The position numbers and the translations under genes are program-made. Positions 6,992 to 49,816 of a stretch of 64,000 nucleotides of DNA are shown here, piece after piece. A model generated the notes under the pieces. That model saw only the letters and a program-made list of their open reading frames with translations. It had not been told where the DNA came from and ran no database searches. Source of the DNA: an uncultured Actinomycetota bacterium (lineage in GTDB: Bacteria; Actinomycetota; Actinomycetes; Actinomycetales; CAWJMD01); the NCBI GenBank assembly GCA_963750285.1, contig CAVVQA010000010.1:113058-177057 (forward strand), given 5' to 3'. Position 1 is the first letter of the stretch. Each line of letters opens with the position of its first letter.

Positions 6992-8090
6992 TTAGCCCCC
7001 GGGCAGGGGTTCGACCTCGACGACCTGGCGGGTGCCGAGGGGGCTGGTCCACTCGTGGGCGGTCACGGTGCCGGTGCTGTTGGTGAGCGTGCGGCAGTGC
7101 CAGAGGGCGGCGGTCTTGTAGCGGTGGCACCGGCGCGATCTGGGGGACAGGTTCTGGACCGACGTCGGTCCGCGGGGGTGGGGGATGGTGTGGTCGAGGT
7201 CGCAGCGTGAGGCGGGGACGGAGCAGCCGGGGAAGGTGCAGACGGGGTCGCGAGCTCGGACGAAGTCCGCGATCTCGACCGTGGGCGTGTAGGCGTCGGT
7301 GTGGTGCCGCGGCTCGGGTTGCTTCTGCAGTGCACGCCGGGTCACTTGCGAGCAGAGCGGTTCTGGTCCAACCGTTCTCGGGCACCCGACCGATGCGGAG
7401 GAACCGGGTGAGGCGCCCGTCGCGGTCGGTGAGCAGGACGCAGGTGCTCGCGCCGCGGTCCAGTGCCTGGTCGGCGACGACGCGGGCGACGGCGGCGGTC
7501 ACGGGCACCGGTGACCCGTTGCCGCGGACCTCGCCGGTGCTGTGGCTGGTCGCGTCGTCGCTGGTCAGGGTGTCCAGGGTGATCACGACGCCGACCTCGC
7601 GCTGCACCCGACCCCCGGCCCGGCCGGCCGGGCCGGTGCCGTCGTCGCAGACGGCGTCGAACAGCAGGTCGAGCTCGGCCATGCCGCGGGTGCGTCCGGC
7701 CAGCTCGTCGCGGCTCAGCCCGCTGACGCGGGCCTGGCAGGTGGCGGCGATGGTCTGGACCAGCTCGGTGGGTCCGGTGACGGTCATCGTGGACAGGGCC
7801 GGGTTCTCCGGGTGCGTCCACACCGAGATCCCCGTGCGGCGGCGGACCTCGTCCCTGACCTGCTCCTCGTCGTCACGGCGGAGCGCGGCGACGGCGGTGG
7901 TGACCCGGCGGGTGAACCGCTCCGGGGTCGGCCCGTCCCACGGCCCCACGGTGCCGGTCCCGTCCAGCACCGGCGCCGGCAGCCCGTCCAGCACGACGGC
8001 CTCGACCTTGCGGGCCTGCCGGTCGGTCAGGTCGGAGGTGTGCTCGGCCATCGTCCGGGCACGGGCGACGTCGATCCGCCCGGCCTCCAA
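6992..8090 (-). CDS. HNH endonuclease of the DUF222 / REP13E12-like family, frameshifted near 7345
   Basis: The N-terminal DUF222-like region (8090 down to ~7345, ORF 6669-8090) continues in a different frame into a canonical HNH motif (6992-7345: CTFPGCSVPASRCDLDHTIPHPRGPTSVQNLSPRSRRCHRYKT). Confidence 0.6.
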
Positions 8091-8496
8091 CGCGCCCAGG
8101 GTGCGCGGTCAGCCTGGTGCACAGCGCCCGGGCCAGGATCACGTCCTGCTCGGCCCAGTAGGTGCTCAGCCCGGTCGCGGCCGCGACCTCAGCCGCGGCC
8201 TGCACGTCGAGGTCGTGCTCGGTGATCCGCCCGCACCCCAACGCATCACCCCGCGAGGCGTCACCCAGCCGGTAGGACTCCTGCGCGTGCACGTGCCGGG
8301 TGATCGCCCAGACCCGCCGCAGGTGCTCGGCCTGGTGCGCGAACCCGGCCAGCGAGTGCGCCCGCAGGTCCGCGACCAGCGCCGCACCGCGCCCCGATCC
8401 GTGATCCCCCGACCTCATGGAGAAAGGCTAGACGCCACCACTGACAGTTGTTTGCCGTCGGATGCCTGTCGACGTCCAACACGAGATGATGAGCCG

Positions 8497-8967
8497 ATGG
8501 CGACAGTGCACCTGTTGGTCGGGCTCAACGCGTCCGGCAAGACGACGCACGCCGAGCGGCTGCAGGAGCAGGAGCCGGCCGTCCGGTTCACGCTCGACGA
8601 GTGGGTGCTGCGTCTGTTCGGCACCGCCTACGACCACCCCGGCTACCCCGAGCAGGCTCAGCGGTGCCAGGACCTCATCTGGGACCTCGCGTGCCAGGTT
8701 CTGGCTGCCGGGACCGATGTCGTCCTGGACTGGAACCAGTGGAGCCGGAAGCGGCGCGACCACTGGCGCGACCGGGCGGACGCGCAGGGGCACGCGGTGG
8801 TCGTCCACTACCTGCCGGTGCCGGTGGAGACGGCGATCGCGCGCGCCGCGCAGCGGGAGAGCGGCGGCCGCCACCACGACCTCGACGCTGCGGCGGTCCG
8901 GCACCTGGCCCTGTTGCTCGAGGTGCCGACCGAGGACGAGGGCAGCGAGCTGCGGATCAGCCGGTGA
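8497..8967 (+). CDS. P-loop ATPase/kinase (AAA_33-like ATP-binding protein)
   Basis: MATVHLLVGLNASGKTTHAERL has a Walker A motif. It is about 156 aa and is the 3' part of ORF 7207-8967, in frame. Confidence 0.55.
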   Translation: MATVHLLVGLNASGKTTHAERLQEQEPAVRFTLDEWVLRLFGTAYDHPGYPEQAQRCQDLIWDLACQVLAAGTDVVLDWNQWSRKRRDHWRDRADAQGHAVVVHYLPVPVETAIARAAQRESGGRHHDLDAAAVRHLALLLEVPTEDEGSELRISR

Positions 8968-9860
8968 CGCGGACCGCGTCCAGGACGGCGAGCCGCACCG
9001 CCTCGGCGGCGGCGGCCTGCACGGTCGCCACGCCCATCACCCGCTGGGCGCCGGGCCAGCCGGCCTCCGACCTCGGGAGCCGCTGCGGCAGAGTCGATCT
9101 CGCCGGTCGCGAGGACGAAGACGGTGTCGCCGTCGCTCAGCGTGTGCACCGGGTCGATCGACCGCGCGAGCCCGTCGTGGCCGGCGCCGGCGGCCCGGGT
9201 CGCCTCGGCGACGTCGAGCCGGGCGTTCGTCACCACCACGGCCAGGGTCGTGTTCAGCGCCGCGTCGCCAGCCGGAGGAGCAGCACCACCCCCCACCACC
9301 CCCGCCGCGTTCACCACGGCCAGCGCAGCCACCAGCACGCCGCCCGGGAGCCGCACGAGCCCGTTCCCGACGCCGCCGGGCGCCGACCCGCGAGCCGTCC
9401 GCGCACCCGTCCCGGCGCCGACCGCACCCCGCGGGAGCGAGCCCGAGACAGCCGAAGCGGCTGCGGCGTGACCCATCTCGGCATCGGGTCGCGCGTCCCA
9501 GTCACCACCGCGCCCGAGGTCGAAGATGCACGCCGCGGGGACGATCGGCACCACGACCGGACGCCCGTCGTCGCGGACGCCGACCGGGAAGCCCAGACCC
9601 TGCTCCTCGCACCACCGCTGCACGCCGTGCGCCGCCACCAGCCCGTACGCCGACCCGCCGGTCAGCACCACGGCGTCGACCGTGTCGACGAGCGTGCCGG
9701 GGGCGAGGGCGTCGGTCTCGTGCGTGCCCGGACCGCCACCCCGCACGTCGACGGCACCGACCGTGCCGGGCGGCGGCACGACCACGGTCACCCCCGTCAG
9801 CCAGCCGTCCCCGGTGCGCTGCGCGTGGCCCACCCGGACGCCGGTCACCTCGGTGATCAC
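8961..9860 (-). CDS. P1/S58 (DmpA-type) aminopeptidase family protein, frameshifted near 9040-9070
   Basis: ORF 8808-9860 has DmpA-like motifs (AVDVRGGGPGTHETDAL, TGGSAYGL, DGDTVFVLATG). The true C-terminus MGVATVQAAAAEAVRLAVLDAVRVTG* is in another frame and ends ~8961. Confidence 0.55.
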
Positions 9861-9919
9861 CGGCCCATCGTGCCACCGACCCGTCGTGCCACCGGGCCGG
9901 TGCCGGTACGGTTCGTGAG

Positions 9920-10753
9920 GTGGCGACCGACACCGATGCCGGCCCGGACGTCGCCGCGCCGCCCGCGCTGTCCTGGCGCCTGGTGCCCGCGATCCTGATC
10001 GCCGCCTCGGGCCTGTCGCTGTTCGGTCTGCACTGGCGTCCGGGCGGGTACGTGGTGCTCGCGGCGGCCGTCGCCTCCGCCCTCGTCGTCGACCGGAGGC
10101 TGGCGCGCGACCTCGCCCTGATCGCCTTCGGCCTCGTCACCATCAGCCTGGTGCGCGTGAACACCGACATCTCGGTGGGCCACATGCTCGAGATGGGCCT
10201 CGCCCTCACCGTCGCCGTCGCCGTGCCGTACCTGGTGTCACGTCACCTGTACGGCGACCACGCCGATCCGGTTCCCGATCCGACGCGGCCACCCGTGGTC
10301 CCCAGCCGAACGCTCGTACCTCGTCGCCGTCCTCGTGCTCGGCTGGGCGATCCTGCCGGTCTACATGATCGGCTCCGGCGTCTACCGGAACTGGCCCGCC
10401 GCGTCCGACGTCGAGCACGATCGCCCGGCTGTTCGTCGGCACCAACGCCCTGGGCATCTGGGACGAGCTGTTCTTCATCTGCACCTGCTTCGCGCTGCTG
10501 CGCCGGCACTACCCGGACTGGCTGGCGAACCTCGTCCAGGCGGTGCTGTTCACGTCGTTCCTGTGGGAGCTGGGGTTCCACGCCTGGGGACCGCTGCTCG
10601 ATCTACCCGTTCGCGCTGGTGCAGGGCTGGATCTTCCGGCTGACGAGGTCGCTCACCTACATCGTGTGCGTGCACCTGCTGTTCGACCTGGTGCTGTTCC
10701 TCGTGCTCGTGCACGCGCACAACCGGCAGTGGCTCCCGCTGTTCGTCTACTGA
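9920..10753 (+). CDS. CPBP-family (CAAX protease / Abi) intramembrane metalloprotease, about three frameshifts
   Basis: Multi-TM protein. Pieces in three frames rejoin to give motifs WDELFF..LLRR, FHAWG and HLLFD/HAHN. ORFs 9920-10753, 10335-10643 and 10543-10986 are the fragments. Confidence 0.45.
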   Translation: MATDTDAGPDVAAPPALSWRLVPAILIAASGLSLFGLHWRPGGYVVLAAAVASALVVDRRLARDLALIAFGLVTISLVRVNTDISVGHMLEMGLALTVAVAVPYLVSRHLYGDHADPVPDPTRPPVVPSRTLVPRRRPRARLGDPAGLHDRLRRLPELARRVRRRARSPGCSSAPTPWASGTSCSSSAPASRCCAGTTRTGWRTSSRRCCSRRSCGSWGSTPGDRCSIYPFALVQGWIFRLTRSLTYIVCVHLLFDLVLFLVLVHAHNRQWLPLFVY

Positions 10754-13694: not shown

Positions 13695-14231
13695 CTAGAA
13701 GAAGGTGTACGCCCGGCGCGACACCGAGAAGCCGAGCCCGGTGCTCGCCTGCGCGCAGCGCATGCCCGCCTCGCTGGAGGAGCAGCTGAAGTCGCCGACC
13801 GTGACGTCGCGGCCGTACGCGAGCGTGCCGCCGCCGGTACCCACGAGCGACTCGGCCGCGCAGGTGACGCGCGGCCCGGCGGCGTCGACGACCACGCCCG
13901 CCCCGTAGACGAGGGTGCAGGCCGCCGGCGGGGCACCCGCGTCCCAGGTCTTCTCCGCGACGTCGCAGCGGGCGAACTGCTCGCTGATGATGCAGGCGAT
14001 GTTGCCGGACGGGGAGACGAACCGGGTGATCGGGACGGCCGGCGCCGGTGGGGCGGTGGTGCCCTCCGCCGGGGGCGGCGTCGTGCCGTCGACCGGGGTG
14101 GCGGCCGGGTCGGGGATCGACGGCAGCGTCGTCTCCGGCACCAGCTCGACCGCGGCCCGGTCGCCGACCTGGCCGAGGGTGTTGAACGCCCACACGGCAC
14201 CGGCCAGGCAGAGCAGCAGGCCGAAGCCCAT
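13695..14231 (-). CDS. Hypothetical membrane-anchored Thr/Pro-rich, Cys-containing protein
   Basis: MGFGLLLCLAGAVWAF is an N-terminal anchor, followed by a PAATPVDGTTPPPAEGTTAPPAP linker and six Cys. No recognisable family. Confidence 0.4.
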   Translation of the reverse strand: MGFGLLLCLAGAVWAFNTLGQVGDRAAVELVPETTLPSIPDPAATPVDGTTPPPAEGTTAPPAPAVPITRFVSPSGNIACIISEQFARCDVAEKTWDAGAPPAACTLVYGAGVVVDAAGPRVTCAAESLVGTGGGTLAYGRDVTVGDFSCSSSEAGMRCAQASTGLGFSVSRRAYTFF

Positions 14232-14319
14232 CGCGATCGCCGGTGTTGCGCCGGCGCGCGCGCACGCGCGCGGCGACCAGCGCGTCCTGCTGGCTCATCA
14301 CCTGCTCCTCAGCCCGGGC

Positions 14320-16493: not shown

Positions 16494-17304
16494 TCACCGC
16501 GGCAGGTCGACCCACTCGCCGTCGATCCGGACCCGGACGCCGACCTCGACGTCGAACGCGGTCGTATCGACGTAGGCGTCGGCCAGCTCCGGCGCCGTCG
16601 CACTCAGGACGAACAGGTCCCTGGTCGGGCCCCACGCCTCCGGAGCCTCCGGGATCGCGGAGCCATCGACCCGGACGAGCCGGATCGGACCGATGTCCGG
16701 GGCGTCCGGCAGCGTCGCCTTGACCTCGCTCGCGCCGGGAGGCAGCACGCCGTACACGATCACCTGCCCGGTGTACGTCCCGTCGGGCCGGACGACGGCG
16801 GCCACCGTCCACCCCGGCGTGGCGTCGTCGGCGGTGACGACCACCGAGGAGCCCGCCAGGCCGGTCGCGGACAGGTCGGGCCGGGGCGACTGCTCGGCCA
16901 CGAGCTCGACCACGCTGTTCCCGTCGGGGGAGTAGACCTCGGGGACGAGGACCACGGGCACGCCGTCGACCTGGAGGCCGGTGGCCACCTGGAGCCGGCC
17001 GTCGACGACCTCGGTCTGCGCGTCCGGCGGCTCGGGCGCCTCGGTCGGTCCGGTCTGCTCTGTCACCGGCACGGTCGTGGCGCGGGACGGAGCGCTCCGC
17101 CTGCGGCTCCGGGCCGAGGACCACGGCGGCTGCGACCACGGACGCAGCCACCGCGGCGACGCCGGCGAGCGCGCCGAGGGTGCGGCGGCGGCGCCGCGCG
17201 CGGCGACCCAACAGCACGACCTCGGCAGCGAGAGTCGCTCGGTACGAGGGGATCTCGGCGGTCGACAGCGCCTCGTGCAGGCGCTCGTGCAGGTCGGTGC
17301 TCAT
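16494..17304 (-). CDS. Anti-sigma factor (single TM, extracytoplasmic domain), frameshifted near 17080
   Basis: MSTDLHERLHEALS... overlaps the sigma-factor stop (ATGA). It has a TM segment LGALAGVAAVAASVVAAAVVLG, then continues in the 16494-17072 frame. Confidence 0.5.
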
Positions 17305-17813
17305 CGCGGGCTCCCGTTCGTGGAAGAGGCGGTGTCGGTGAGGGCGGCGCGCATCCGCCGCAGGGCGCGGTGGGCGGTGGACTTCACGGTGCCGGGGGCG
17401 ATGCCGAGCTCGTCGGCGATCTCGCGCTCGGACAGCTCGGCGAGGTAGCGCAGCACGACGACGGCCCGCTCGCGCTCGGTCAGCACGGCGAGCGCCGGGA
17501 GCACGGTGCGGCGGTCGACCAGCGCCTCGAGCGCGCGCTCGTCCGGCGGGCCGGTCGGCTCGGGAGGCTCGTCGACGAGGTCCTCGCGCCGCGTCCGGCG
17601 CCAGGTGTCGGTGTGGGCATTCACCAGGACCCGCCGGGCGTACGCCGTGGCGTCCTCGACCCGCACCCGCGACCAGGCCAGGTAGGTGCGCACCAGCGCC
17701 TGCTGCACGAGGTCCTCGCCGCGGGCGGTGTCGCCGGTCAGCAGGTACGCGGTGCGCCACAGCGCCGGCGTCGCGGCGGCCGCGAACGCGGTGAACTGCT
17801 CGTCCGGGCTCAT
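17301..17813 (-). CDS. ECF (sigma-70 family, group 4) RNA polymerase sigma factor
   Basis: 170 aa with region 2 (LVQQALVRTYLAW) and region 4 (LSEREIADELGIAPGTVKSTAHRA). Confidence 0.88.
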   Translation of the reverse strand: MSPDEQFTAFAAAATPALWRTAYLLTGDTARGEDLVQQALVRTYLAWSRVRVEDATAYARRVLVNAHTDTWRRTRREDLVDEPPEPTGPPDERALEALVDRRTVLPALAVLTERERAVVVLRYLAELSEREIADELGIAPGTVKSTAHRALRRMRAALTDTASSTNGSPR

Positions 17814-17850: not shown

Positions 17851-18192
17851 CAGGCGCGCAGCACCTTGGCCATCGGACGGCCCTTGGCGAGCTCGTCGAC
17901 GAGCTTGTCGAGGTAGCGGATCCGGCGCATCAGCGGGTCCTCGACCTCCTGCACCTTGACGCCGCAGACGCTGCCCGTGATCGAGCGAGGCGCGCGGGTT
18001 GAGCTCGGCCGCGGCGAAGAAGTCCTCGAAGGTGGTGCCGGCGTCGAGGTGGGAGCGCAGCGTGGCGTCGTCGAAGCCGGTGAGCCAGCGGATCACCTCG
18101 TCGACCTCGTCGGCCGTGCGGCCCTTGCGCTCGACCTTGGTGACGTACAGCCGGTACACGTCGGCGACGCTGGTGGTGAAGATGCGGTGCAC
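17850..18192 (-). CDS. DUF2200 domain protein, single-base frameshift near 17968
   Basis: [40 protein letters not shown]...[13 protein letters not shown], then in the +1 frame [43 protein letters not shown]. Confidence 0.55.
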
Positions 18193-18314
18193 GCGGCGAG
18201 GCTACCTGCGCCGGTCGGGTGACGGCGTCCACCGGACCGTGACCCGTCCGGGCGAGCGGGGGAGCGGGGGCCGAACGGGTCAAGCACGAGCGCGATCGGC
18301 CCGACGCTGTCGAG

Positions 18315-19380
18315 GTGCGTGCACCGGGGTGGGGCCGTCTGACGGCAGGCTGCGTGCTGGGCGCCGCCGTGCTCGGCGCCGTCGGCGTGCCCGCGCCCGG
18401 GCCGACCGGCGCGGCTTCCGCTACCCGGGCCGCGGCCGAGGTCCCCACGATCCGCGCCCTCACGCGCGGCCGACGTGGTGCTGCGCGTGCGGGCCGAGGC
18501 CGACGACGCGAGCCGCTCGTCACGGGTCGCGGCACCGGGGTCGGTCGAGGGCCTCACGACCGACCCGACCGCCGCCTCGGTCCTGCCGCCCGGGCTCACG
18601 GGTCCGCCCGGCAGCACCGGCCCGCTCGGCGTGCCCGACCGGGTGCTCACCGCGTACCACTCGGCCGAGGTGCTGCTGGCCCGCACCCGTCCCGGCTGCG
18701 CGATGCCGTGGTGGCTGCTCGCGGGCATCGGCAAGGTCGAGTCCGGCCACGCCAGCGGCGGCCGGGTGGACCGTCACGGCCGGACCCGGGGCGAGGTGCT
18801 CGGACCGCTGCTCGACGGCAGCCTCGCCGGGACGATGGTGGTCGAGGACACCGACCGCGGCGTGATGGACGGCGACACCGCCTTCGACCGCGCCGTCGGG
18901 CCGATGCAGTTCCTGCCGGGCACCTGGCGGACCGTGGGCACCGACGCCGACCGCAACGGCACGGCCGACCCGCACGACGTGGACGACGCGGCCGCGACCG
19001 CCGGCGTCTACCTCTGCCGCGGCGGCGGGAGCATGACCGACCCGGACCAGATGCGCGCAGCGGTGCTCCGCTACAACGGCTCCGACGAGTACGCCGACGC
19101 GGTGATCGCCTGGGGCACGTCGTACCGCGACCGCGCCGTGGCCGTCCCCGGCCAGGACGGCACCATCGGGCCGCTGCCCGTGGTGCCGGTGGTGCCCGCA
19201 CCGGGAACCCCCGCCGTGCCGGTCGCCCCGACGTCGCCGTCCGACCCCGCACCCGACGGCGCCGCCGACCACCACCCCGCCCACGCACCCCACGACGCCG
19301 CCGACCACCGAGCCGCCGGTCGACCCGGAGCCCACCGAGCCGCCCGGCGCCGCGCCCGAGCCGCCCGAGCCCACGCCCTG
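18315..19380 (+). CDS. Secreted lytic-transglycosylase-domain protein with Pro/Thr-rich C-terminal tail, about two frameshifts
   Basis: Signal peptide at 18315. The SLT-like core is PWWLLAGIGKVESGHA...GPMQFLPGTW...DPHDVDDAAATAGVYLC. The tail PTPTTPPTHPTTPPTTEPP...PEPTP* is in another frame and ends ~19380. Confidence 0.55.
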
Positions 19381-19402
19381 AGCGCACCCCTACCCTGAGC
19401 GG

Positions 19403-20246
19403 CGTGCTCATCGACCTCCACACCCACTCCACGGTGTCGGACGGCACGCAGCCGCCGGCCGTGGTGGTGGCGGAGGCGGCGGCGGCCGGCGTCGACGTCG
19501 TGGCGCTGACCGACCACGACAGCACCGCGGGCTGGGACGACGCGGCGGCCGCGGCGGCCGAGCACGGCGTGGCGCTCGTGCGCGGCGTCGAGATCTCCTG
19601 CGCCCGCTGGGGCACGAGCGTGCACCTGCTCGGCTACCTGTTCGACCCCGCCTCGCCCGGTCTGCTCGCCGAGATGGAGCGCTCGCGCGGCTCCCGCGAG
19701 AGCCGCGCGCGGAAGATGACCGAGCGGCTCGGACGCGACTACCCGATCACCTGGGACGACGTCCTGGAGCAGGTCGAGGACGGCGCCACGATCGGGCGGC
19801 CGCACCTGGCCGACGCGCTCGTCGCCGGTGGCTCGTTCCCCGACCGCGACGCCGCCTTCGCGACCGCGCTGCACCGGTCGTCGGGCTACCACGTGGCGCA
19901 CTACGCGCCGGACCCCGCCGACGCCGTGCGGCTCGTGCTGGAGGCCGGTGGCGTCCCGGTGCTCGCCCACCCGTTCGCGCACACCCGCGGGCGGGTGCTG
20001 GACGACGAGACGGTCGAGGAGCTGGTCGAGGTGGGTCTGATGGGGCTCGAGGTCGACCACCGCGACCACGACGACGACGCCCGCCGGCGGCTGCGCGAGA
20101 TCGCCGCCGCGCACGACCTGCTGGTCACCGGCTCGAGCGACTACCACGGCGCGGGCAAGCAGAACCGGCTGGGGGAGAACGCGACCCGTCCCGACCAGCT
20201 CGAACGGATCGAGGCGGCCGGACGGCTGGAGGTGCTGCTCCCGTGA
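19403..20246 (+). CDS. PHP-domain metal-dependent phosphoesterase (TrpH/YciV-like)
   Basis: LIDLHTHSTVSDG...ALTDHD...HP motif series. Confidence 0.8.
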
Positions 20247-20864
20247 GCGTCGACGCGGTGGTGAACCTCCAGCTGCTCGGGGCCACGTTCGTCACGCTGT
20301 TCGTGATCATGGACCCGCCCGGCACCGTGCCGATCTTCCTCGGCGCTGACCTCGAAGATGGACGGCCCGGCGCGCTCGCGGGCCGCGCGCCAGGCCGTGC
20401 TGGTGGCCCTCCTGGTGATCGTGCTGTTCGCGATCTTCGGCCAGGGGATCCTGTCGTACCTGCACATCTCGCTGCCCGCGCTGCAGGCAGCGGGTGGCCT
20501 GCTCCTGCTGCTCGTGGCGCTCGAGCTGCTCACCGGCAAGGCCGACGACCCCTCGGCGACGGCGGACGTGAACGTCGCGCTGGTGCCGCTCGGCACACCG
20601 CTGCTGGCCGGGCCGGGCGCGATCGTCGCGACGATGGTGTTCGTCCAGCAGGCCGAGGGCGCGCCCGACGTGGTCGCGATCGCGGTCGGCATCGTGCTGG
20701 TGCACGTGGCGCTCTACCTGGCGATGCGGTTCGCCGGGCAGATCCACCGGTTGCTCGGCGAGAGCGGGGTGCTCCTCGTCACCCGGATCGCCGGCCTGCT
20801 GCTCTCGGCGATCGCGGTGCAGCTGGTGGCCGACGCGGTGAAGGCCTTCATCGAGCAGGCGTGA
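20243..20864 (+). CDS. MarC-family (UPF0056) integral membrane protein, frameshift near 20345
   Basis: MSVDAVVNLQLLGATFVTLFVIMDPPGTVPIFLG, then in the +1 frame LTSKMDGPARSRAARQAVLVALLVIVLFAI... Confidence 0.55.
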
Positions 20865-20880: not shown

Positions 20881-21345
20881 GTGCCGCGCGCCGAGCTCGA
20901 ACCACACCCGCTTGCCGCCGGCGTCGGCCGCCCGCCACCCCCAGGTGTCGGCGAGCACGTCGACCAGCTGCAGGCCGCGGCCGCCCTCGTCGTCGTCGGC
21001 CGCGTGCCGTACGGCCAGGTCGTCCGGGTCGGCGGACGGGACGGTGCTGTCGTGCACCTCGACCCGCAGGACGGCCAGGTGGAGCAGCCCCGCCGACAGC
21101 CGCACCGGCGCGGCGCCGTGCCGGATCGCGTTCGTCACGAGCTCGCTGGTGAGCAGCACCGCGACGTCGACGGCGTCGCCGGTCCACCCCCACCCGGTGA
21201 GGGCGCGCGCCAGCGCCCTGCGGGCGCGGCTGACCTCGCGGGGGCCCGACCCGAGCTCGGCGATCAGCTCCACGCCGGGGATTCTCGCACCCCGGGACGT
21301 CCGTCCGGGTGACCGGCTCGTCGGGCCGTCACCCGGACGGGGCAT
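20881..21345 (-). CDS. Anti-sigma regulatory factor (HATPase_c Ser/Thr kinase-like)
   Basis: ELVTNAIRHG...VLRVEVHDS...DDEGGRGLQLVDVLADTWGW is a GHKL ATPase fold of about 150 aa. Confidence 0.6.
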
Positions 21346-35577: not shown

Positions 35578-35588
35578 GCGGCGAACCG

Positions 35589-36509: not shown

Positions 36510-36570
36510 CGTACGGGCCGGGCCACCGCCCGGCCTGCTGCCCCGCCGGGCGGCCCGTAGGGTGACGAGC

Positions 36571-37505
<935 letters not shown>

Positions 37506-37510
37506 CGGCG

Positions 37511-38150
37511 TCAGGTCGGCAGGGAGGTCACCAGCGCGGGGCGGTCCGGGTGCTCGCACCCGGGCCACCAGGTCGGCGCGGTCGGCGGGCCAGGTCTCCT
37601 CGGTGTAGCGGGCCCAGGCGCCGCGCACCCGCTCGAGGTCCTCGGGCGCCAGCCGCCGGGCGAGCGCGGCGTCGCCGGCCACCAGGTGCACGCCCACGTC
37701 GACGGCGTCGGCGGTCTCCCAGCGCAGCAGGAACGGCCCGTCGACGACCAGCGTGCTGCCGGGTGCGGCCTGCTCGCGCGGCGCCCGGGTGGCCCGGTCG
37801 GTCACGGGGTCCCACAGGGTGGGCAGCCAGCGCAGGTCGCCGTCCGGGCCGAGGGGGTCGAGCACCTCGCGGCGCAGCGCCAGGTGGTCGACCCAGCGCT
37901 CGTAGCCGGCGTCGGCGTCGTGCGGGCCGTGCTCCAGCCGCACCGAGCGGGGGCGCAGGAAGTCCTCGGCGTGCACCCGCAGCACCGGCTGCCCCTGCGC
38001 CGCCAGGTCGGCGGCGACGAGGTCGGCCAGCGAGCGGGCGTCCGCGGGGACGGCGGCGTCGACCGCCACCCGGACGCAGCCGCGGCCGGAGGCCAGCAGG
38101 TCGCGGGCCCGGTCGGCCACGAGCGCGGCGAGCCCCGCCGGGGTGACCGG
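37511..38150 (-). CDS. Conserved hypothetical protein (frameshifted); start not resolved
   Basis: Real-looking coding in ORF 37356-38450 from about aa 100 onward (LAALVADRARDLLASGRGCVRVAVDA...RWLPTLWDPVTDR...). The C-terminus ...EHPDRPALVTSLPT* is in a shifted frame ending ~37511. Confidence 0.35.
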
Positions 38151-38173
38151 TCGGACGTGCGGCCCGGCCGGGG

Positions 38174-38434
38174 TCAGGCCAGCGCCGCCTTGACCTGCCC
38201 GAGCGAGGGGTTGGTCAGCGCGCTGCCGTCCGGGAACAGGACCGTGGGGACGGTCTGGTTGCCGCCGTTGACCTGCATCACGAAGTCGGCCGCACCGGGC
38301 TCGTTCTCGATGTTCACCTCGGAGTACGCGATGCCCTCGCGGTCCAGGGCCTGCTTCAGCACGCGGCAGTAGCCGCACCAGGTGGTGCTGAACATCGTCA
38401 CGGTGCCGGCGGACGGCGTCGCGGGTGTCGTCAT
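38174..38434 (-). CDS. mrx1: Mycoredoxin (glutaredoxin-like, CGYC active site)
   Basis: VTMFSTTWCGYCRVLKQALDREGIAYSEVNIE... Confidence 0.85.
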   Translation of the reverse strand: MTTPATPSAGTVTMFSTTWCGYCRVLKQALDREGIAYSEVNIENEPGAADFVMQVNGGNQTVPTVLFPDGSALTNPSLGQVKAALA

Positions 38435-38500
38435 ACCAGGACCCAACCACCCGTCTCGACCGCCCATTCCGTCGGGTGTCGGCGGGCCGGGGCAGGATGG

Positions 38501-40616
38501 GTGCCGATGACGCTCCTGCCCACCACCCCCTCGTCGGCCGACGCCGTCCTCGAGGCGCTCGACCCCGAGCAGCGCGAGGTGGCCACCAGCCTGCGCGGTC
38601 CCCTCTGCGTGCTCGCGGGGGCCGGCACCGGCAAGACCCGCGCCATCACCCACCGCATCGCCTACGGGGTGCACTCGGGCATCTACGTCCCGCAGACCGT
38701 GCTGGCCGTCACCTTCACCGCCCGCGCCGCGGGGGAGATGCGCACCCGGCTGCGCGAGCTCGGCGTCGGCGGCGTGCAGGCGCGCACCTTCCACTCCGCC
38801 GCGCTGCGCCAGCTGCAGTTCTTCTGGCCGCAGGTGGTCGGCGGGGCGCGTGCCGTCGCTGGTCACGCAGAAGGCGCCGCTGGTCGGTGCCGCCGCCTCG
38901 CGGCTGCGGATCCAGGTCGACCGCGCCGCCGTGCGCGACCTCGCCGCCGAGATCGAGTGGGCCAAGGTCTCCATGGTCGAGCCCGACGACTACCCGGCGG
39001 CGGCCGAGCGGGCCGGCCGCAGCGGCGTCGCCGGCATGGCACCCGTCGCCGTGGCGCGGGTGCTGCGCGGCTACGAGGACGTCAAGACCGACCGCGGCGT
39101 GATCGACTTCGAGGACGTCCTGCTGCTCACCGCCGGCGTGCTGGAGGAGCGGCCCGACGTCGCCGCCACCGTGCGCGGGCAGTACCGGCACTTCGTGGTC
39201 GACGAGTACCAGGACGTCTCCGGCCTCCAGCAGCGGCTGCTCGACCTGTGGCTCGGCGACCGCGACGACCTGTGCGTGGTCGGCGACGCCAGCCAGACCA
39301 TCTACTCCTTCGCGGGCGCCGACCCGCAGCACCTGCTCGGCTTCCGCCGGCGCTACCCGCAGGCCGCCCTGGTGCAGCTGGTGCGCGACTACCGCTCCAC
39401 CCCGCAGGTGGTGGGCCTGGCCAACCGGCTGCTCGACCGCGCCCCCGCCTCCGCCCGCACCGCGCGGGTCGAGCTGGTGGCCCAGCGGCCCGCCGGGCCG
39501 GAGCCCGAGCTGCTCGAGCACGCCGACGACGTCGACGAGGCCGAGCAGGTCGCCACCCGCATCCGCGCGCTGGTCGACGGCGGCGTGCCCGCCCGCGAGA
39601 TCGCGGTGCTGTACCGCACCAACGGCCAGTCCGAGCCGCTCGAGCAGGCGCTCGCCGAACAAGGGCGTCGGCTACCTCCTGCGCGGCGGCGAGCGGTTCT
39701 TCCAGCGTCCCGAGGTGCGCGAGGCGGTGCTGCTGCTGCGCGGCGCCGCGCGCGGCGACGACGGCTCGTCCTCCCTCGGCGAGGCCGCCCGCGCCGTCCT
39801 CGGCCGGGGCGGGCTGGTCGCACGAGCCGCCCGCCGGCACCGGCGCGGTGCGCGAGCGCTGGGAGTCGCTGCAGGCGCTGGCCGCGCTCGCCGACGACCT
39901 CGACCGGGCCCGGCCCGGGGTGCGCCTGCCCGACCTGGTGGCCGAGCTCGAGGAGCGGGCCGCCGCCCAGCACGCGCCGGCCGTCGAGGGCGTCACCCTC
40001 GCCTCCCTGCACGCCGCCAAGGGCCTGGAGTGGGACGTCGTCGCGATCGTCGGGCTGTCCGAGGGGCTCGTGCCGATCTCGTTCGCCGCCGACTCGGCCG
40101 ACGCCGTGGAGGAGGAGCGCCGGCTGCTGTACGTCGGCGTCACCCGCGCGCGCGAGCGGCTGCTGCTGTCCTGGTCGCGCTCGCGCACCCCCGGCGGACG
40201 CGGCTCGCGGCGGCCCTCGCGGTTCCTCGACGGCCTGGTGCCGGGCAGCCGGCCGTCAGGCGCCGCCGGCCGCCCGGAGCAGCCGCAAGCGGCGCGCGTC
40301 GTCGCTGCACACCACCTGCCGCGGGTGCGGCGCGGCCCTGTCCACCGCGGTCGAGCGCAAGACCGGGCGCTGCTCGACCTGCCCGCCCGACCACGACGAG
40401 CAGCTGTTCGAGGCGCTGCGCGGGTGGCGGGCCGAGATCGCCAAGGAGCAGAAGGTGCCGGCGTACGTCGTCTTCACCGACGCCACGCTCGAGGCGCTCT
40501 CGTTCGCCAAACCCGTTGACGCACAAGGACTCCTGAAGATCTCCGGGATCGGCCGCACCAAGGTGGAGCGGTACGGCGAGGCGGTCCTCGACGTCGTCGC
40601 CAGAAGTTCTTCGTGA
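38501..40616 (+). CDS. uvrD2: ATP-dependent DNA helicase UvrD2-like (UvrD core plus C-terminal HRDC domain), several frameshifts
   Basis: CVLAGAGTGKTRAITHRIAY, VVDEYQDVS, VVGDASQTIYSFAGA, ASLHAAKGLEWDVV, a Cys4 linker, and the HRDC region (EALRGWRAEIAKEQKVPAYVVFTDATLEAL). Confidence 0.8.
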
Positions 40617-40629
40617 CGTCCTCGTTAAT

Positions 40630-40690
40630 GTCGTTGCCCCGCGCGAGCCGGGCCGTCTAACCTGATCGACGCAGCCCGGAGCGGGTTGTC
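40630..40690 (+). promoter_or_regulatory. Candidate whiB7 promoter with an AT-rich element just upstream of the -35 (cgttaatgtcg; TTGCCC-N18-TAACCT)
   Basis: An AT-rich patch at ~40635-40645 in otherwise GC-rich DNA. WhiB7 proteins bind AT-rich DNA next to their own -35 via the AT-hook. Confidence 0.35.
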
Positions 40691-40750
40691 GCAGCTACCG
40701 GCCGTGCGTGGCACACGGACCGGCGACCGAGGGAGAGGAGGGGACACCTG

Positions 40751-40990
40751 ATGGAGAGCACGAAGTCGATGCAGCTGGTCGCGCTGTCGCGCGCCGGGTA
40801 CCAGGTCCCCTCCGCGGACCTGGGCAAGCGGTGCGTCCAGGGCGATCTGCTCGTGACCAGGGGACAGGTGCGCCCGATCCAGGGTGCCGTCGCCGGTTTC
40901 CCGGTCCGCATCCGCCCCGCCGCCTTCCCGATCCCCGCCACCCAGCTCACGGGCTCCGTCCCGCCTGGAGGCCACCGGTTCGAGACGTAG
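40751..40990 (+). CDS. Upstream ORF (79 codons) in the whiB7 5' leader; candidate attenuator uORF
   Basis: A strong RBS gggagaggagggg lies 7 nt before the ATG. It sits in the ~580-nt leader between the uvrD2 stop and the whiB7 start. Confidence 0.4.
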   Translation: MESTKSMQLVALSRAGYQVPSADLGKRCVQGDLLVTRGQVRPIQGAVAGFPVRIRPAAFPIPATQLTGSVPPGGHRFET

Positions 40991-41194
40991 GTCGACCCCG
41001 AGTCGACCGAGGTCGACCCACCGGAGCCACCAGGCCGCGGATCCCCGAGAGGGATACCGCGGCCTTTCTCGTCCCCCACGAGGCGCTCCGGCACAGGAGC
41101 GCTGCACCGGCCCAGAACGGGCCAGCACGCAACGTCTGACCGACGACCCGCTCCAGGCCACCACCCGTGGCCCGACCTCCAGGAGGTGCCCGCG

Positions 41195-43900: not shown

Positions 43901-45500
43901 TCAGTCGCCGATCGTCGGGATCAGCTGCGGCGCCACGCGGACGTCGGTGTGCTGCTCGAACGAGTAGGCGAGGGAGAGCATCTCGGCGTCCGACCACCGA
44001 GCACCGAAGAAGCTCACTCCGACCGGGAGCGGGCCGGAGTAGCCCGCCGGGACGGTGACGTTCGGGTACCCGGCCACGGCGGCCGGCCCGGACGAGCCGA
44101 ACACGAAGGCGTCGCCCTCACCCAGGGTGCTGACCCACGCCGGGCTGTTCGTCGGCGCCATGATCGCGTCGAGGTCGTACGTCGCCAGCGTCTCGTCGAT
44201 CGAGGCGCGGGCGGCGCCGGTGGCCGCGGTCCGGGCGGCCCGGGCCTCGGCGGAGCCGGCCGGCGGTGCGTCGACGGCCAGCTGGAAGATCTCCTGGCCG
44301 AAGTACTGCAGCTCCACCGGGTCGCGCTCGTTGAAGCGGATCAGGCCCTCGAGGGTGCCCGGGTGGCGCCCCGGGGTGGAGCGGAGGTACTTCTCGACGT
44401 CGCGCTCGAACTCCGAGAGCAGCGCCGGGAACTCGTTCTCGTCGATGACGTCCTGGTACGGCAGCTCGACGTCGACCGCGGTGCCCCCGGCGGCCTCGAT
44501 GGCGGCCACCGCCTGCTCGGTGATCGCGTCGGTCTCCGGCGAGCCGGTGGCGCCGCGCAGCCAGACGCCGATGCGGGCACCGTCGAGGGAGTCGGCGTCC
44601 AGGGCCTTGGCGTAGTTGCGGGTCTGGTCCGCGGGGATCGCACCGGTCGCGGGGTCCTTGCGGTCGCGCCCCTGCAGCACGTTCAGCATCAGGGCGGCGT
44701 CGATCGCGTGCCGGGCCATCGGGCCGGCGGTGTCCTGGTCGGCCGAGATCGGCACGATGCCGTCGCGGCTGACCAGGCCGAGGGTCGGCTTGACCCCGAC
44801 GAGCCCGTTCGCGGCCGAGGGGCACACGATCGAGCCGTCGGTCTCGGTGCCGACCGCGACCTGGGCGAGGGACGCCGCGACGCCGGCGGCCGAGCCGGAC
44901 GAGGAGCCGCACGGGTTGCGGTCCAGCACGTAGGCGTTCGAGGTCAGGCCACCGACCGCCGACCAGCCGCTGGTGGACGTCGTGGACCGGAAGTTCGCCC
45001 ACTCCGACAGGTTCGCCTTGCCGATGACGACGGCGCCCGCCTCGTGCAGCTTCCGCACGATGGTGGCGTCGTCCGGGCGGCCGCCGAGCAGGGCGCGCGA
45101 GCCGGCGGTGGCGCCCTGCGCCTCGGTGTCGATGTTGTCCTTGAGCAGCACCGGGACGCCCTCGAGCGAGCTGCGCGCGCCGTGGTGGCGGCGCTGCTTG
45201 TCGCTGGCAGCGGCCTCCTTCTGCGCGAGGGGGTTCACCTCGAGGACGGCGTTCAGCCGGCCGTCCAGGCGCTTGATGCGCTGCAGGTACGCGGCGGTGA
45301 GGTCGACGGAGGTGAGCCGGCCCTGGCGCATCTCCTGCTGGATGAGCGGGGATGGTGGCGGCGTCCAGGTCGCGCAGGACCTGGGAGCGGTGGTGGCCGC
45401 CGCCGGCCTGGGCGGCGGGGACGAGACCCAGGCCGAGCGCGACGGCGAGGAGGGCGACGAGGAGGGCGGAGCGGGTCCTGCGGGGGGAGCGGTGGCTCAT
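43901..45500 (-). CDS. Secreted amidase (amidase signature family), frameshift near 45345
   Basis: A signal peptide MSHRSPRRTRSALLVALLAVALGLGLVPAAQA in frame 44118-45500. The mature AS enzyme is in frame 43901-45331 (GGSSSGSAAGVAA, KDNID). Confidence 0.75.
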
Positions 45501-47537: not shown

Positions 47538-48455
47538 ATGCGTGTGCAGTTCATCCTCGAACAGCTGTGGAAGGGCCTGGCGCGCAACATCGCCATGGTC
47601 GTGTCGGTCGTCATCGTGACGTCGATGTCGCTGTTCTTCGTCGGCGGCGCCCTGCTGTTCCAGCAGCAGATCGACACCATGAAGGACTACTGGTACGACC
47701 GGGTCCAGGTCTCGATCTTCCTGTGCAGCGAGGGCAGCGAGGCGCCCACGTGCACCGCGGGCGCGGCCGACGACGCCGTCCGCGACCAGATCGAGTCCGA
47801 CCTGGAGTCGCCGGCGCTGGAGACCTACGTCGACGAGGTCTTCTACGAGAACAAGGACGAGGCGTTCGACCGGTTCCAGGAGCAGTTCGAGGACACCCCG
47901 GCGATCACCGAGAACGTCACGGCCGAGCAGATGCCGGAGTCGTTCCGGGTCAAGCTCAAGGATCCCGAGAAGTACGAGGTGGTCTCGCAGTTCTTCTCCG
48001 GCCGGTCCGGGGTCGAGGAGGTCGTCGACCAGCGCGAGCTGCTCGACACCTTCTTCAAGTTCCTCAACCTGCTGACGGCGGGGGCGGTGGTGCTGGCCGT
48101 CTTCATGCTCGTCGCGGCGACGCTGCTCGTGGCCACGACGATCCGGCTGGCGGCGGTGAGCCGTCGCCGCGAGACCGAGATCATGCGGCTGGTCGGTGCC
48201 TCCAAGACGCTGCTCCAGCTGCCGTTCATGCTCGAGGGCATCATCACCGTCGCCCTCGGGGCGGCGCTGGCCGTCGCGGGGTGGTGGGTGGTCGTCAAGT
48301 ACGTCGTGCAGGGCGTGCTGGTCTCGGACCTGCCCCTGTTCAACTACATCGGCACGGGTGCGGTCTGGGCGATGGCGCCCTGGCTGTTCGCGCTCGGAGT
48401 GCTCCTGGCCAGCGTGTCGTCCTTGGTCACGCTGTCCCGGTACCTCAAGGTGTAG
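47538..48455 (+). CDS. ftsX: Cell-division ABC permease-like protein FtsX
   Basis: An N-terminal TM, a large extracellular domain, and a C-terminal three-TM FtsX fold. It lies immediately after ftsE. Confidence 0.9.
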   Translation: MRVQFILEQLWKGLARNIAMVVSVVIVTSMSLFFVGGALLFQQQIDTMKDYWYDRVQVSIFLCSEGSEAPTCTAGAADDAVRDQIESDLESPALETYVDEVFYENKDEAFDRFQEQFEDTPAITENVTAEQMPESFRVKLKDPEKYEVVSQFFSGRSGVEEVVDQRELLDTFFKFLNLLTAGAVVLAVFMLVAATLLVATTIRLAAVSRRRETEIMRLVGASKTLLQLPFMLEGIITVALGAALAVAGWWVVVKYVVQGVLVSDLPLFNYIGTGAVWAMAPWLFALGVLLASVSSLVTLSRYLKV

Positions 48456-48524
48456 GGGCGCCACCACCTCCACCAGACACCTCCCACCAGGCCCGGTCCC
48501 GACTTCCCCTCAGGAGCCAGCCCC

Positions 48525-49816
48525 ATGCGCCACCCCGACCCGTCCGCGACGGGACGTCGCCCGACCGCTCGGTCGGGCGCTCGTCGCCGGTGCCGTCGTG
48601 CTGGCCGTCCTGGTCAGCGGCGTCGGCCGCCTCGGCCGACCCGCGCGAGCGCAAGCGGGAGGTCGACAGCTCGATCGAGGAGCTCCAGGAGGCCCTGAGC
48701 GGCACGTCGAAGGAGCTGCAGGCGGCGTACGCGGCGCTGGCGAGCACCCAGGCGCAGATCCCGGTCGCGCAGGCGGCGCTGGACACGGCGCTGTCGGCCG
48801 AGGCCGCCGCCGAGCAGCTCGACGCCGAGCTGGCGGTGCGGCTCGAGGCCGCCCGCACGACGCAGGAGCAGGCGCAGGCCGAGCTGGACGAGAGCAGCGC
48901 CGAGATCGAGCGCACCCGCACCGACATCGGGCGGATGGCCGGCGAGGTCTACCGCTCGGGCGTGGCCTCGCCGCAGCTGAGCATCGTGCTCGGGGCGCAG
49001 AGCCCGGACGACTTCGCCACCCGCTACACCATGGCCGACACCGTGCTGCGGGCCCGGATCGGCACCCTGACCTCGCTGGGCGAGCGGAAGGCGGTGCAGG
49101 CCAACGCGCAGGCACGGGTCGACGCCGTCGAGGTGGAGGTCGCCGACCTGCGTCAGCAGGCCGCCGACGCGCTCGCCGCCGCCGAGCAGGCCCGGGCCGA
49201 CGCCGCCGCGCGGCGCACCGAGCTCGACGGCCTGCTGGCCGCCCAGCAGGCGGCGACGGCCCAGATCGCTGCCCGCAAGGCCGAGGAGGAGACCAAGCTC
49301 GCGGCCTACGAGGCCGAGCAGGCCGCGCTCGCGGCCGAGCTGCGGCGGATCGCCGAGGAGGAGCGTCGCCGGGCCGCCGAGGAGGCGCGCAAGGCGCGCG
49401 AGGCCGGCCGCCGGGTCCCGGCCGCCGCCTCGGGCAACGGGAGCCTGTCGCGCCCGGTGGACGGCTACATCACCTCGGGCTTCGGCTACCGGATCCACCC
49501 GATCTACGGCACCCGCCGCCTGCACGCCGGCACCGACTTCGGGTCGCCGTGCGGCACGCCGGTCCGGGCAGCGGCGCCGGGATCGGTGGTCTCGGCCGGC
49601 TGGGGCGGCGGGTACGGCAACCGGATCATCGTGTCCCACGGCAGCGGCATGGCCACCACCTACAACCACCTGTCGCGGTACGCGGTGCGAGGCGGCTCGG
49701 TGTCGCGCGGCCAGGTGATCGGCTACGTCGGCACCACCGGGTCGTCCACCGGGTGCCACCTGCACTTCGAGGTCCGGATCAACGGGACGCCGGTCAATCC
49801 GATGGGTTACCTCTAG
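48525..49816 (+). CDS. Secreted coiled-coil M23 peptidase (EnvC/PcsB-like, FtsEX-associated), two frameshifts in the signal region
   Basis: RBS then ATG ~48525. The signal peptide is RPLGRALVAGAVVLAVLVSGV. A long Ala/Glu/Gln coiled-coil follows, then the M23 domain (HAGTDFG...GYGNRIIVSHG...GCHLHFEV). Confidence 0.75.

What the first reader, a model, noticed from the sequence alone, without database searches (positions are those of the whole stretch)
6992..49816. Pervasive single-base frameshifts in about 20 otherwise well-conserved genes
Reconstructing the proteins by eye shows one or more +1/-1 indels in many genes. Affected genes include the HNH endonuclease, DmpA peptidase, CPBP protease, anti-sigma factor, DUF2200 protein, both transglycosylases, marC, parA, the DEAD-box tail, adnB (at least five), nudC (at least three), the hypothetical at 37511-38150, uvrD2, the amidase, the M23 peptidase (two within 100 nt), the SRPBCC protein and the IS110 transposase. 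The AhcY copy 2 and the copy-1 downstream gene are also affected. In each case the conserved motifs simply continue in a shifted frame, for example ParA LEPV|RDAYDVVLLDCSPSL and DUF2200 NPRASL|ITGSVCGV. Genes in the same window such as ahcY copy 1, prfB, ftsE, ftsX, smpB and pepP are intact. A rate of about one indel per 1-2 kb in GC-rich runs is typical of uncorrected long-read consensus, not of natural pseudogenisation. The alternative is a genome undergoing massive decay, which would be unusual given that the frameshifted genes include essential-type functions.
Basis: seen in the sequence. Interest (0 to 1): 0.55.

Follow-up and report, generated by a model that had tools for sequence, protein, structure and literature searches.

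The report
Assembly-error frameshifts in a soil MAG
About forty genes' worth of broken reading frames in this high-GC actinobacterial contig are caused by stray single extra bases put in by a noisy long-read metagenome assembly, not by real gene decay, so the finding is an artefact worth flagging only as a data-quality warning.

Summary
Between 6992 and 49816 the window carries about 41 one-base indels that break some 20 otherwise conserved genes. Two details are wrong. The events are almost all insertions (about 41 insertions against 3-5 deletions). They also avoid homopolymers (29 of 40 are not next to an identical base).

Evidence for error:
- A 99%-identical independent contig (L068) lacks all five window insertions in their 7.5-kb overlap.
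- Relatives at 97.5% and 95.6% (L065, L066) lack most of the window's insertions and carry 14 and 18 private ones at other sites.
- With the extra bases removed there is not one in-frame stop, and dN/dS of the worst-hit genes (adnB 0.10, uvrD2 0.09) equals that of intact neighbours.
- The same contig holds a junk stretch with A21-G156 between two copies of ahcY.

The relatives come from Nanopore-only Flye and Medaka soil assemblies (Microflora Danica). About 12 insertions recur at the same site in one other noisy contig. Substitutions there still fall on third positions of the original frame, so these are recurrent artefacts and not inherited frameshifts. Their cause is unexplained. Interest is low.

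The parts
7011..8383 (-). HNH/DUF222-like gene, read in three frames. Extra T at 7346 and extra G at 8103.
   Evidence: Viterbi switches at 7344 and 8100. One-base gaps against L061. The references here are only 90-93% identical, and L061's own copy looks disrupted, so confidence is lower.
8963..9900 (-). DmpA/Peptidase_S58 gene with an extra C at 9067. It gives a garbled, extended C-terminus (350 aa instead of about 296-300).
   Evidence: Absent from L068 (99.0% identical), L061 and L063. P0199 shows the correct C-terminus. The exact 350-aa product is in the public collection.
9905..10750 (+). CPBP/Rce1-like protease with three extra bases at about 10264, 10410-10415 and 10599. The middle 335 nt is out of frame and the frame is then restored.
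   Evidence: Frames run +1 to +2 to +0 to +1. All three insertions are private to the window against L068, L061 and L063.
13696..14319 (-). DUF6636-like gene with an extra base at 14237-14239.
   Evidence: Private to the window against L065, L068, L061 and L062. Viterbi switch at 14238.
16501..17326 (-). Anti-sigma factor downstream of the ECF sigma factor (17327-17814), with an extra C at 17083. A further extra C at 17836 lies upstream of the sigma gene.
   Evidence: L065 has an intact 269-aa gene and lacks both bases. Viterbi switch at 17073. The sigma factor was identified by Pfam.
17851..18198 (-). DUF2200 gene with an extra base at 17982-17985.
   Evidence: Translation. Private to the window against L065, L061 and L062.
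18249..19330 (+). SLT_2 transglycosylase with an extra G at 18464 and a cluster of extra bases at 19222-19243.
   Evidence: 18464 and 19243 are private to the window.
19385..20858 (+). PHP gene (extra G at 19401, at its 5' edge) and MarC (extra G at 20345). Both insertions recur in contig L065.
   Evidence: Shared by the window and L065, absent from L061 and L062. Downstream of 20345, 12 of 13 window-L065 differences are at third positions of the original frame. An intact 206-aa MarC is found in a JGI relative, P0193.
20881..21322 (-). HATPase_c_2 (anti-sigma-factor-type kinase) gene with an extra C at 21290, in a CCC run.
   Evidence: Private to the window.
21355..22123 (+). ParA-type ATPase with an extra G at 21696.
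   Evidence: Pfam AAA_31 profile positions 3-112 and 116-175 fall in two frames.
23321..25026 (-). DEAD-box helicase. A one-base deletion at 23348 in the RGG-rich tail removes the stop codon, and the ORF runs on to 22558.
   Evidence: The base is present in L065, L061 and L062. ORF 22558-25131.
32232..35572 (+). adnB. Extra bases at about 32264, 32292, 33333, 33364, 33867, 34837-34842 and 34850, plus a 4-nt deficit at 33763-33773.
   Evidence: With the insertions removed, pN/pS is 0.10-0.11, the same as intact adnA, with 0 stops. 32292 and 33867 recur in L066.
36564..37502 (+). nudC. Extra bases at 36663, 37104, 37240, 37313 and 37481. The patch also has excess private non-synonymous substitutions.
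   Evidence: 36663, 37240 and 37481 recur in L066. The 37-38 kb bin has 21 private changes at codon positions 1 and 2. An Illumina-type Logan contig (L067) has an intact 317-aa NudC.
37505..38175 (-). Hypothetical gene with an extra G at 37556. The 2-nt difference at 37781 is an insertion in relative L001, not in the window.
38531..40598 (+). uvrD2. Extra bases at 38849, 39655, 39814, 39830 and about 40255, and one missing base at 39835.
   Evidence: pN/pS is 0.09-0.11 with 0 stops. In 39836-40250, 13 of 15 window-L066 differences are at third positions of the original frame. The exact garbled 588-aa product is in the public collection.
43902..45474 (-). Amidase with an extra C at 45347 that cuts off the N-terminus.
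   Evidence: One-base gap against L041. Viterbi switch at 45348. The exact 476-aa truncated product is in the public collection. There is only one reference here.
48551..49813 (+). M23 peptidase with extra C at 48558 and at 48627.
   Evidence: One-base gaps against L064, whose gene is an intact 421 aa. There is only one reference here.
25075..41130 (.). Scattered one-base insertions outside coding sequence: 25075 (shared with L065), 35578 and 41130.
3477..3888 (.). Low-GC junk containing A x21 (3588-3608) and G x156 (3609-3764). It separates two direct copies of ahcY plus its downstream gene (1327-3476 and 3771-5928). This is outside the finding but is the same quality problem.
   Evidence: Copy 2 has about 8 insertions, and pN is roughly equal to pS against copy 1. 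L061 and the 99%-identical L068 have a single copy.

Best explanation
The frameshifts are consensus errors in a deposited long-read metagenome contig. The contig is very probably Nanopore-only, built with Flye and Medaka, and low in coverage. It is a 177-kb contig of an uncultured high-GC actinobacterial MAG.

During consensus calling, single spurious bases (mostly G or C, as expected in 74% GC DNA) were inserted about once per kilobase. They come in patches, probably where read depth or read quality was lowest. Each extra base shifts the reading frame by +1, so gene callers emit truncated or garbled proteins. The organism's real genes are intact.

**Shown:**
- The insertions exist in the public record.
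- Most are private to this contig.
- Related contigs from the same kind of assembly carry their own private insertions.
- The underlying coding sequence shows normal purifying selection and no nonsense mutations.

**Inferred:**
- The sequencing platform and pipeline of this particular contig, because its record name is not retrievable.
- That low depth is the cause of the patchiness.
For: 1. **Direction.** All Viterbi frame switches step +1 per event, or +2 where two insertions lie close together. Alignments give about 41 insertions against 3-5 one-base deletions.
2. **Privacy.**
   - L068 (99.0% identical, 7.5 kb) lacks all 5 window insertions in the overlap and has one of its own.
   - Against L065 (97.5%): 8 window-private, 14 L065-private (9 of them within 550 nt of pepP), 4 shared.
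   - Against L066 (95.6%): 12 window-private, 18 L066-private, about 8 shared.
   - L064 has its own insertions in prfB, where the window and L041 agree.
3. **Selection.** After dropping the inserted bases there are 0 in-frame stops in any gene. dN/dS is 0.104 for adnB and 0.087 for uvrD2, against 0.083 for intact adnA, 0.107 for pepP and 0.09 for the DEAD-box gene.
4. **Shared sites are not inherited.** In intervals that would be out of frame in both contigs, differences fall on third positions of the original frame: 45 of 56, 13 of 15 and 12 of 13.
5. **Assembly junk in the same contig.** A21-G156, degraded low-GC sequence and a duplicated ahcY block. The second copy has pN roughly equal to pS. 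The duplication is absent from L061 and L068.
6. **Patchiness.** There are no coding insertions in 25.1-32.2 kb, against about 20 in 32.2-37.6 kb.
7. **Provenance of relatives.** L001/L061, L002 and L062-L066/L068 are ENA ERZ250395xx Microflora Danica assemblies. These were Nanopore-only, built with Flye --meta --nano-hq and one round of Medaka, and their authors note Nanopore-associated errors in lower-coverage MAGs (PMC12313526). Nanopore R10.4 bins below about 40x need short-read polishing (PMC9262707). Nanopore soil assemblies show more frameshift errors than HiFi (PMC13087279).
8. **Other broken copies.** Other ENA contigs of this lineage yield further truncated MarC, S58, SmpB and amidase fragments broken at different points.
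Against: - The error profile is not the textbook one. The insertions avoid homopolymers, and I know of no documented insertion-only mode for this pipeline.
- About 12 insertions recur at identical positions in a second independent contig, where about 0.03 would be expected by chance. Purely random noise does not predict that.
- No sequence motif explains them.
- The window's own record, platform and read depth could not be retrieved, so the link to the Nanopore pipeline is by association with its relatives.
- For the amidase, the M23 peptidase and the HNH-like gene, only one moderately distant reference was available.
Confidence: 0.93

Rival explanations
1. Genuine pseudogenisation. The lineage is undergoing reductive genome decay and has accumulated real frameshift mutations in about 20 genes.
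For: The frameshifts are in the deposited sequence. A minority recur in a second related contig. nudC shows a somewhat raised pN/pS of about 0.4.
Against: - There is not one nonsense mutation.
- Insertions outnumber deletions about ten to one, although I recall from general knowledge, not tested here, that bacterial mutation favours deletions.
- dN/dS in multiply hit adnB and uvrD2 equals that of intact neighbours.
- A 99%-identical contig lacks all five testable insertions.
- Each related contig has a different private set.
- At shared sites the original frame is still under purifying selection.
- Junk and a spurious duplication in the same contig show that the assembly is unreliable.
Confidence: 0.02
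2. Strain-mixture consensus artefact. Reads from co-occurring 95-99% related strains were piled onto one contig. At polymorphic sites the polisher kept both alleles, which creates a one-base insertion. This is a specific mechanism within the error explanation.
For: - Several related strains co-occur in the same samples. contig_25804, contig_25805, contig_47462 and contig_2225 are all in ERZ25039476, and contig_7386 and contig_33469 are both in ERZ25039530.
- The ahcY block appears twice as two diverged haplotype-like copies.
- The insertions are non-homopolymeric and mostly G or C, as G/C third-position polymorphisms would give.
- At a few sites the inserted base equals the allele of a relative at the neighbouring column, for example 33333, 33364 and 37104.
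Against: - Only 22 of 29 clean coding insertions touch a third codon position. Chance gives 2/3, and this model predicts about 0.9.
- A column-wise test found the inserted base as a neighbouring allele in a relative at only 5 of 40 sites, although that test was blurred by gap placement.
Confidence: 0.15
3. Recurrent context- or modification-dependent basecalling error. The roughly 12 insertions that recur in L065 or L066 mark sites where the pore signal makes the basecaller emit an extra base. The cause would be local sequence context on one strand or a strain-specific DNA modification. The error survives only where depth is low. This applies to a subset of sites and is compatible with the main explanation.
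For: - At least 6 events in L066 and 4 in L065 are identical to window events at the same position, against about 0.03 expected by chance.
- They are not inherited.
- The cleaner relatives L001, L061, L062, L002 and L041 lack them although their local sequence is the same.
Against: - No enriched k-mer or positional base preference was found among 79 insertion contexts.
- From my own knowledge, not tested here, methylation-related Nanopore errors are usually described as substitutions.
- Whether the samples are truly independent could not be fully checked, because the window's sample is unknown.
Confidence: 0.3

Closest known systems
Indel and frameshift errors in Nanopore-only (Flye + Medaka) metagenome-assembled genomes at low coverage
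   Same: - One-base indels break otherwise conserved genes and give truncated gene calls.
- The errors are patchy and differ between independent assemblies of the same lineage.
- The closest relatives come from exactly such a pipeline (PMC12313526).
- Low-coverage bins are documented to need short-read polishing (PMC9262707).
   Different: - The classic description is of homopolymer indels, often deletions. Here the errors are almost all insertions and they avoid homopolymers.
- The density is about 100 per 100 kb. That is far above the roughly 4 indels per 100 kb reported for well-covered R10.4 assemblies (PMC13087279).
Pseudogene-rich genomes in reductive evolution (for example Mycobacterium leprae, recalled from general knowledge)
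   Same: Many conserved genes, including DNA-repair genes, are interrupted by frameshifts.
   Different: - There are no nonsense mutations, no larger deletions and no relaxed dN/dS.
- The insertions are absent from a 99%-identical relative.
- The pattern is insertion-only.
Chimeric-read or haplotype-duplication misassembly in long-read assemblies
   Same: Two direct copies of the ahcY block are separated by degraded sequence and A21-G156. Relatives have a single copy.
   Different: The read evidence for a chimeric join could not be inspected.

Membership tests
Long-read consensus (assembly) indel errors | The indels are absent from independent assemblies of the same or a near-identical lineage. 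| tested here: met
   L068 (99.0%) shares 0 of 5. L065 (97.5%) lacks 8 of 12. L066 (95.6%) lacks 12 of about 20.
Long-read consensus (assembly) indel errors | Other assemblies made the same way carry their own unrelated indels. | tested here: met
   Private insertions: 14 in L065, 18 in L066, 1 in L068, 2 or more in L064 prfB, and one 2-nt insertion in L001. The reference-free rate is 2.4-2.9 per 10 kb in L064 and L006, against 0 in isolates.
Long-read consensus (assembly) indel errors | With the indels removed, the coding sequence behaves as a functional gene (no stops, low dN/dS). | tested here: met
   0 stops. dN/dS is 0.104 for adnB and 0.087 for uvrD2, against 0.083-0.107 for intact genes.
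Long-read consensus (assembly) indel errors | The indels are concentrated in homopolymer runs (the classic Nanopore, PacBio or 454 signature). | tested here: not met
   29 of 40 have run length 1, against 46% expected at random. Only 2 lie in runs of 3 or more.
Long-read consensus (assembly) indel errors | The record derives from an unpolished or low-depth long-read assembly. | tested here: inconclusive
   The window's record is not retrievable. Its proteins sit on a 177,057-nt NCBI+ENA contig. All close relatives are Microflora Danica Nanopore assemblies (PMC12313526).
Long-read consensus (assembly) indel errors | The read pile-up does not support the extra base. | not testable with these tools
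   No reads are available.
Genuine pseudogenes / reductive genome decay | A mixed spectrum of inactivating mutations: frameshifts of both signs, nonsense mutations and deletions. | tested here: not met
   About 41 insertions, 3-5 one-base deletions and 0 nonsense mutations.
Genuine pseudogenes / reductive genome decay | Relaxed selection (dN/dS approaching 1) in the disrupted genes. | tested here: not met
   Substitutions lie at third positions of the original frame even downstream of shared insertions. nudC is mildly raised (0.37-0.46), but it lies in a patch that also has excess private substitutions.
Genuine pseudogenes / reductive genome decay | The lesions are inherited by close relatives in a tree-like pattern. 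| tested here: not met
   The closest relative (99%) shares none. The sharing with the 97.5% and 95.6% relatives contradicts the selection evidence.
Programmed frameshifting / transcriptional slippage | A slippery heptamer or homopolymeric tract at the shift site. | tested here: not met
   The contexts are heterogeneous, GC-rich and non-repetitive, with no enriched motif.

The most novel reading that the evidence does not exclude
The roughly 12 insertions that recur at identical positions in independent contigs of related strains could be genuine features of the DNA. The original reading frame around them remains under purifying selection. They could be real extra nucleotides that are bypassed during expression, which would be pervasive non-slippery +1 recoding in an actinobacterium. 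They could also be bulky modified bases that the pore reads as two bases. The sequence data alone cannot exclude this for that subset.
Probability: 0.01. Interest if true: 0.85.

Novelty: not a real feature. Interest (0 to 1): 0.07.

Why it matters
**Biology.** It does not matter biologically. The organism almost certainly has intact adnB, nudC, uvrD2, parA and the other affected genes.

**Practice.**
- This public MAG contig feeds truncated and garbled proteins into protein databases. Four such products were found verbatim in the public collection.
- It would mislead pseudogene counts, pangenome analyses and metabolic reconstructions.
- The error signature is insertion-only and non-homopolymeric. 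Homopolymer-aware correction would therefore miss these errors.
- The partial recurrence at identical sites in other Nanopore contigs means that agreement between two such assemblies is not proof that an indel is real.

Tried and rejected
1. **Both alleles kept at a polymorphic site.** Only 22 of 29 insertions touch a third codon position, which is close to the 2/3 expected by chance. A neighbouring-allele test gave 5 hits in 40 and was blurred by gap placement. The idea is not supported, though it is not excluded.
2. **Methylation or sequence-motif hot spots.** No k-mer (k = 3-5) or positional base preference stands out among 79 insertion contexts after allowing for multiple testing.
3. **Inherited real frameshifts for the sites shared with L065 and L066.** Rejected, because differences between the contigs sit on third positions of the original frame.
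4. **Identifying the window's own record.** Exact look-ups of SmpB, PepP (P0001) and FtsX (P0122) returned 'not on record'.
5. **First frame plot.** My first frame plot, based on GC by codon position, confused sense and antisense frames. I replaced it with a codon log-odds model.
6. **Pfam on the HNH-like and anti-sigma fragments.** No hits.
I did not locate it.

Full report
**What the window is.** The window has 74% GC and GC3 of 0.97-1.0 in coding regions. It is an uncultured actinobacterial contig. A scan with AdnA found L001, a Microflora Danica MAG (MFD04212.bin.1.208), about 94% identical over window 19.5-43.5 kb. It also found L002 (MFD01275.bin.2.2, a closed chromosome, about 80%) and L003 (an Illumina MAG, about 81%). 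Further look-ups gave L061 and L062 (the same lineage as L001, covering 1.8-26.7 kb), L063, L041 (82-89%), L064, L065 (97.5%), L066 (95.6%), L067 (a Logan contig) and L068 (99.0%). Intact window proteins (PepP, FtsX, SmpB) occur residue-for-residue in the public collection on a 177,057-nt contig with sources NCBI and ENA. The record itself could not be retrieved.

**Checking the observation.** I trained a six-frame Viterbi segmentation on codon log-odds from called genes of L061. It finds 34 same-strand frame switches that are not gene junctions, 24 of them inside 6992-49816. That is 6.1 per 10 kb of coding sequence. Seven relatives give 0-1.3, two other Nanopore contigs give 2.4-2.9, and Streptomyces and Kitasatospora isolates give 0.

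- Every switch steps the frame by +1, or by +2 where two events lie close together.
- The switch points coincide with one-base gaps in DNA alignments.
The ParA halves match Pfam AAA_31 positions 3-112 and 116-175 in two different frames.
The genes it called intact are intact.
- The IS110 transposase (62.9-64.0 kb), the second transglycosylase (50.5-51.9 kb) and a frame switch at 55049 lie outside the stated range. The SRPBCC gene was not located.
- The 'anti-sigma factor' is 16501-17326, downstream of an ECF sigma gene. That gene pair is absent from the L001 lineage but present in L065.

**Nature of the events.** About 41 are one-base insertions and only 3-5 are one-base deletions (23348, 25859, 39835; perhaps 7077 and 13689). 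The inserted bases are G 20, C 15, T 3 and A 2. Of 40 insertions, 29 are not adjacent to an identical base, whereas random insertion into this sequence would give 46%. The events are patchy. There are none in the coding sequence of 25.1-32.2 kb and about 20 in 32.2-37.6 kb.

**Error or biology?**
1. *Closest relatives.*
   - L068 is 99.0% identical over 7.5 kb. It lacks all five window insertions there and has one of its own, in pepP.
   - In a four-way alignment with L065, L061 and L062, 8 insertions are private to the window and 14 are private to L065, nine of them within 550 nt of pepP. Four are shared by the window and L065.
   - With L066, L001 and L041, 12 are private to the window, 18 are private to L066 and about 8 are shared.
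   - L064 has its own insertions in prfB, where the window and L041 agree. L001 has a private 2-nt insertion.
   - Every noisy contig therefore has a different set of insertions.
2. *Selection.* With the inserted bases removed there is no in-frame stop in any gene. dN/dS against L001 and L061 is 0.104 for adnB (eight events) and 0.087 for uvrD2. Intact adnA gives 0.083, pepP 0.107 and the DEAD-box gene 0.09. Real decay that produced this many indels should also leave nonsense and excess non-synonymous changes.
3. *Other signs of a poor assembly.*
   - Positions 3477-3888 are low-GC junk with A21 followed by G156.
   - The junk separates two direct copies of ahcY and its downstream gene.
   - Copy 2 carries about eight insertions, and its pN is roughly equal to its pS against copy 1.
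   - L061 and L068 have one copy.
4. *Provenance.* The related contigs come from Nanopore-only assemblies built with Flye --meta --nano-hq and one round of Medaka. Their authors report Nanopore-associated errors in lower-coverage MAGs (PMC12313526). R10.4 bins below about 40x are known to need short-read polishing (PMC9262707). Nanopore soil assemblies show more frameshift errors than HiFi (PMC13087279).
5. *Not introduced downstream.* The shifted products (MarC 168 aa, amidase 476 aa, S58 350 aa, UvrD2 588 aa) are in the public protein collection verbatim. Other ENA contigs of the lineage yield differently truncated copies.

**The recurrent subset.** About 12 insertions recur at the same position in L065 or L066. 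These are 19401, 20345, 22157 and 25075 in L065, and 32292, 33867, 36663, 37240, 37481, 39814, 39830 and about 40255 in L066. Chance predicts about 0.03 such coincidences. If these were inherited frameshifts, the sequence between them would have drifted neutrally since the strains split. Instead, window-to-relative differences lie on third positions of the original frame: 45 of 56 in adnB 32300-33860, 13 of 15 in uvrD2 39836-40250, and 12 of 13 in marC 20350-20858. pN/pS in the uvrD2 interval is 0.06. The original frame is therefore what selection sees, and the shared insertions are recurrent artefacts.

I could not find their cause.
- There is no motif.
- There is no homopolymer association.
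- The 'both alleles retained' idea is not supported by codon-position statistics.
- Strand-specific context errors that survive at low depth, strain-specific DNA modification, or cross-mapping of reads from co-occurring strains all remain possible.

**Verdict.** The feature is an assembly artefact of low biological interest. It has some practical value as a warning about this record and about insertion-type, non-homopolymer and partly reproducible errors in Nanopore-only MAGs.

Noticed in passing
window 3477-3888 (A21 at 3588-3608, G156 at 3609-3764): A low-GC, degraded-looking stretch containing 21 A followed by 156 G. It lies between two direct copies of the ahcY block and looks like a chimeric-read or stalled-pore artefact frozen into the contig.
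   Followed up: partly
window 1327-3476 and 3771-5928: A direct duplication of ahcY plus its downstream gene, 92.5% identical and mosaic, with some stretches near-identical. Copy 2 has about 8 insertions and pN roughly equal to pS. L061 and the 99%-identical L068 have a single copy, so this is probably a false haplotype duplication.
   Followed up: partly
window 16492-17849: An ECF sigma factor and anti-sigma factor pair. It is present in the window and in L065 but absent from the L001/L061/L062 lineage, so it is a real 1.36-kb presence/absence difference between related strains.
   Followed up: partly
L065 (window-equivalent 14746-15298); L064 prfB (window-equivalent 45725, 46574); L001 (window-equivalent 37781): Other public Microflora Danica contigs carry their own one- or two-base insertions. 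There are nine within 550 nt of pepP in L065. The problem is therefore not confined to this record.
   Followed up: yes
window 19401, 20345, 25075, 32292, 33867, 36663, 37240, 37481, 39814, 39830, ~40255: Insertions that recur at the identical position in a second independent Nanopore contig (L065 or L066), although the original frame stays under purifying selection. The cause of the recurrence is unexplained.
   Followed up: partly
window 53046-53412 (+): A tmRNA gene (tag peptide ADSNRTDFALAA), about 2.7 kb downstream of smpB. It gives a full-length Rfam match.
   Followed up: yes
window ~57000-64000: A lower-GC region (0.66-0.69) with a tyrosine-recombinase-like gene (60920-61891, minus strand), a frameshifted IS110 transposase (62937-63957) and two paralogous secreted proteins (57884-58342 and 58411-59313, resembling 6250-6930). 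It is probably a mobile or variable island.
   Followed up: no
window 27000-31000 versus L066 and L001: L066 is almost identical to L001 here, with very few private substitutions. It is closer to the window further right. This suggests a mosaic (recombinant) relationship among these strains.
   Followed up: no
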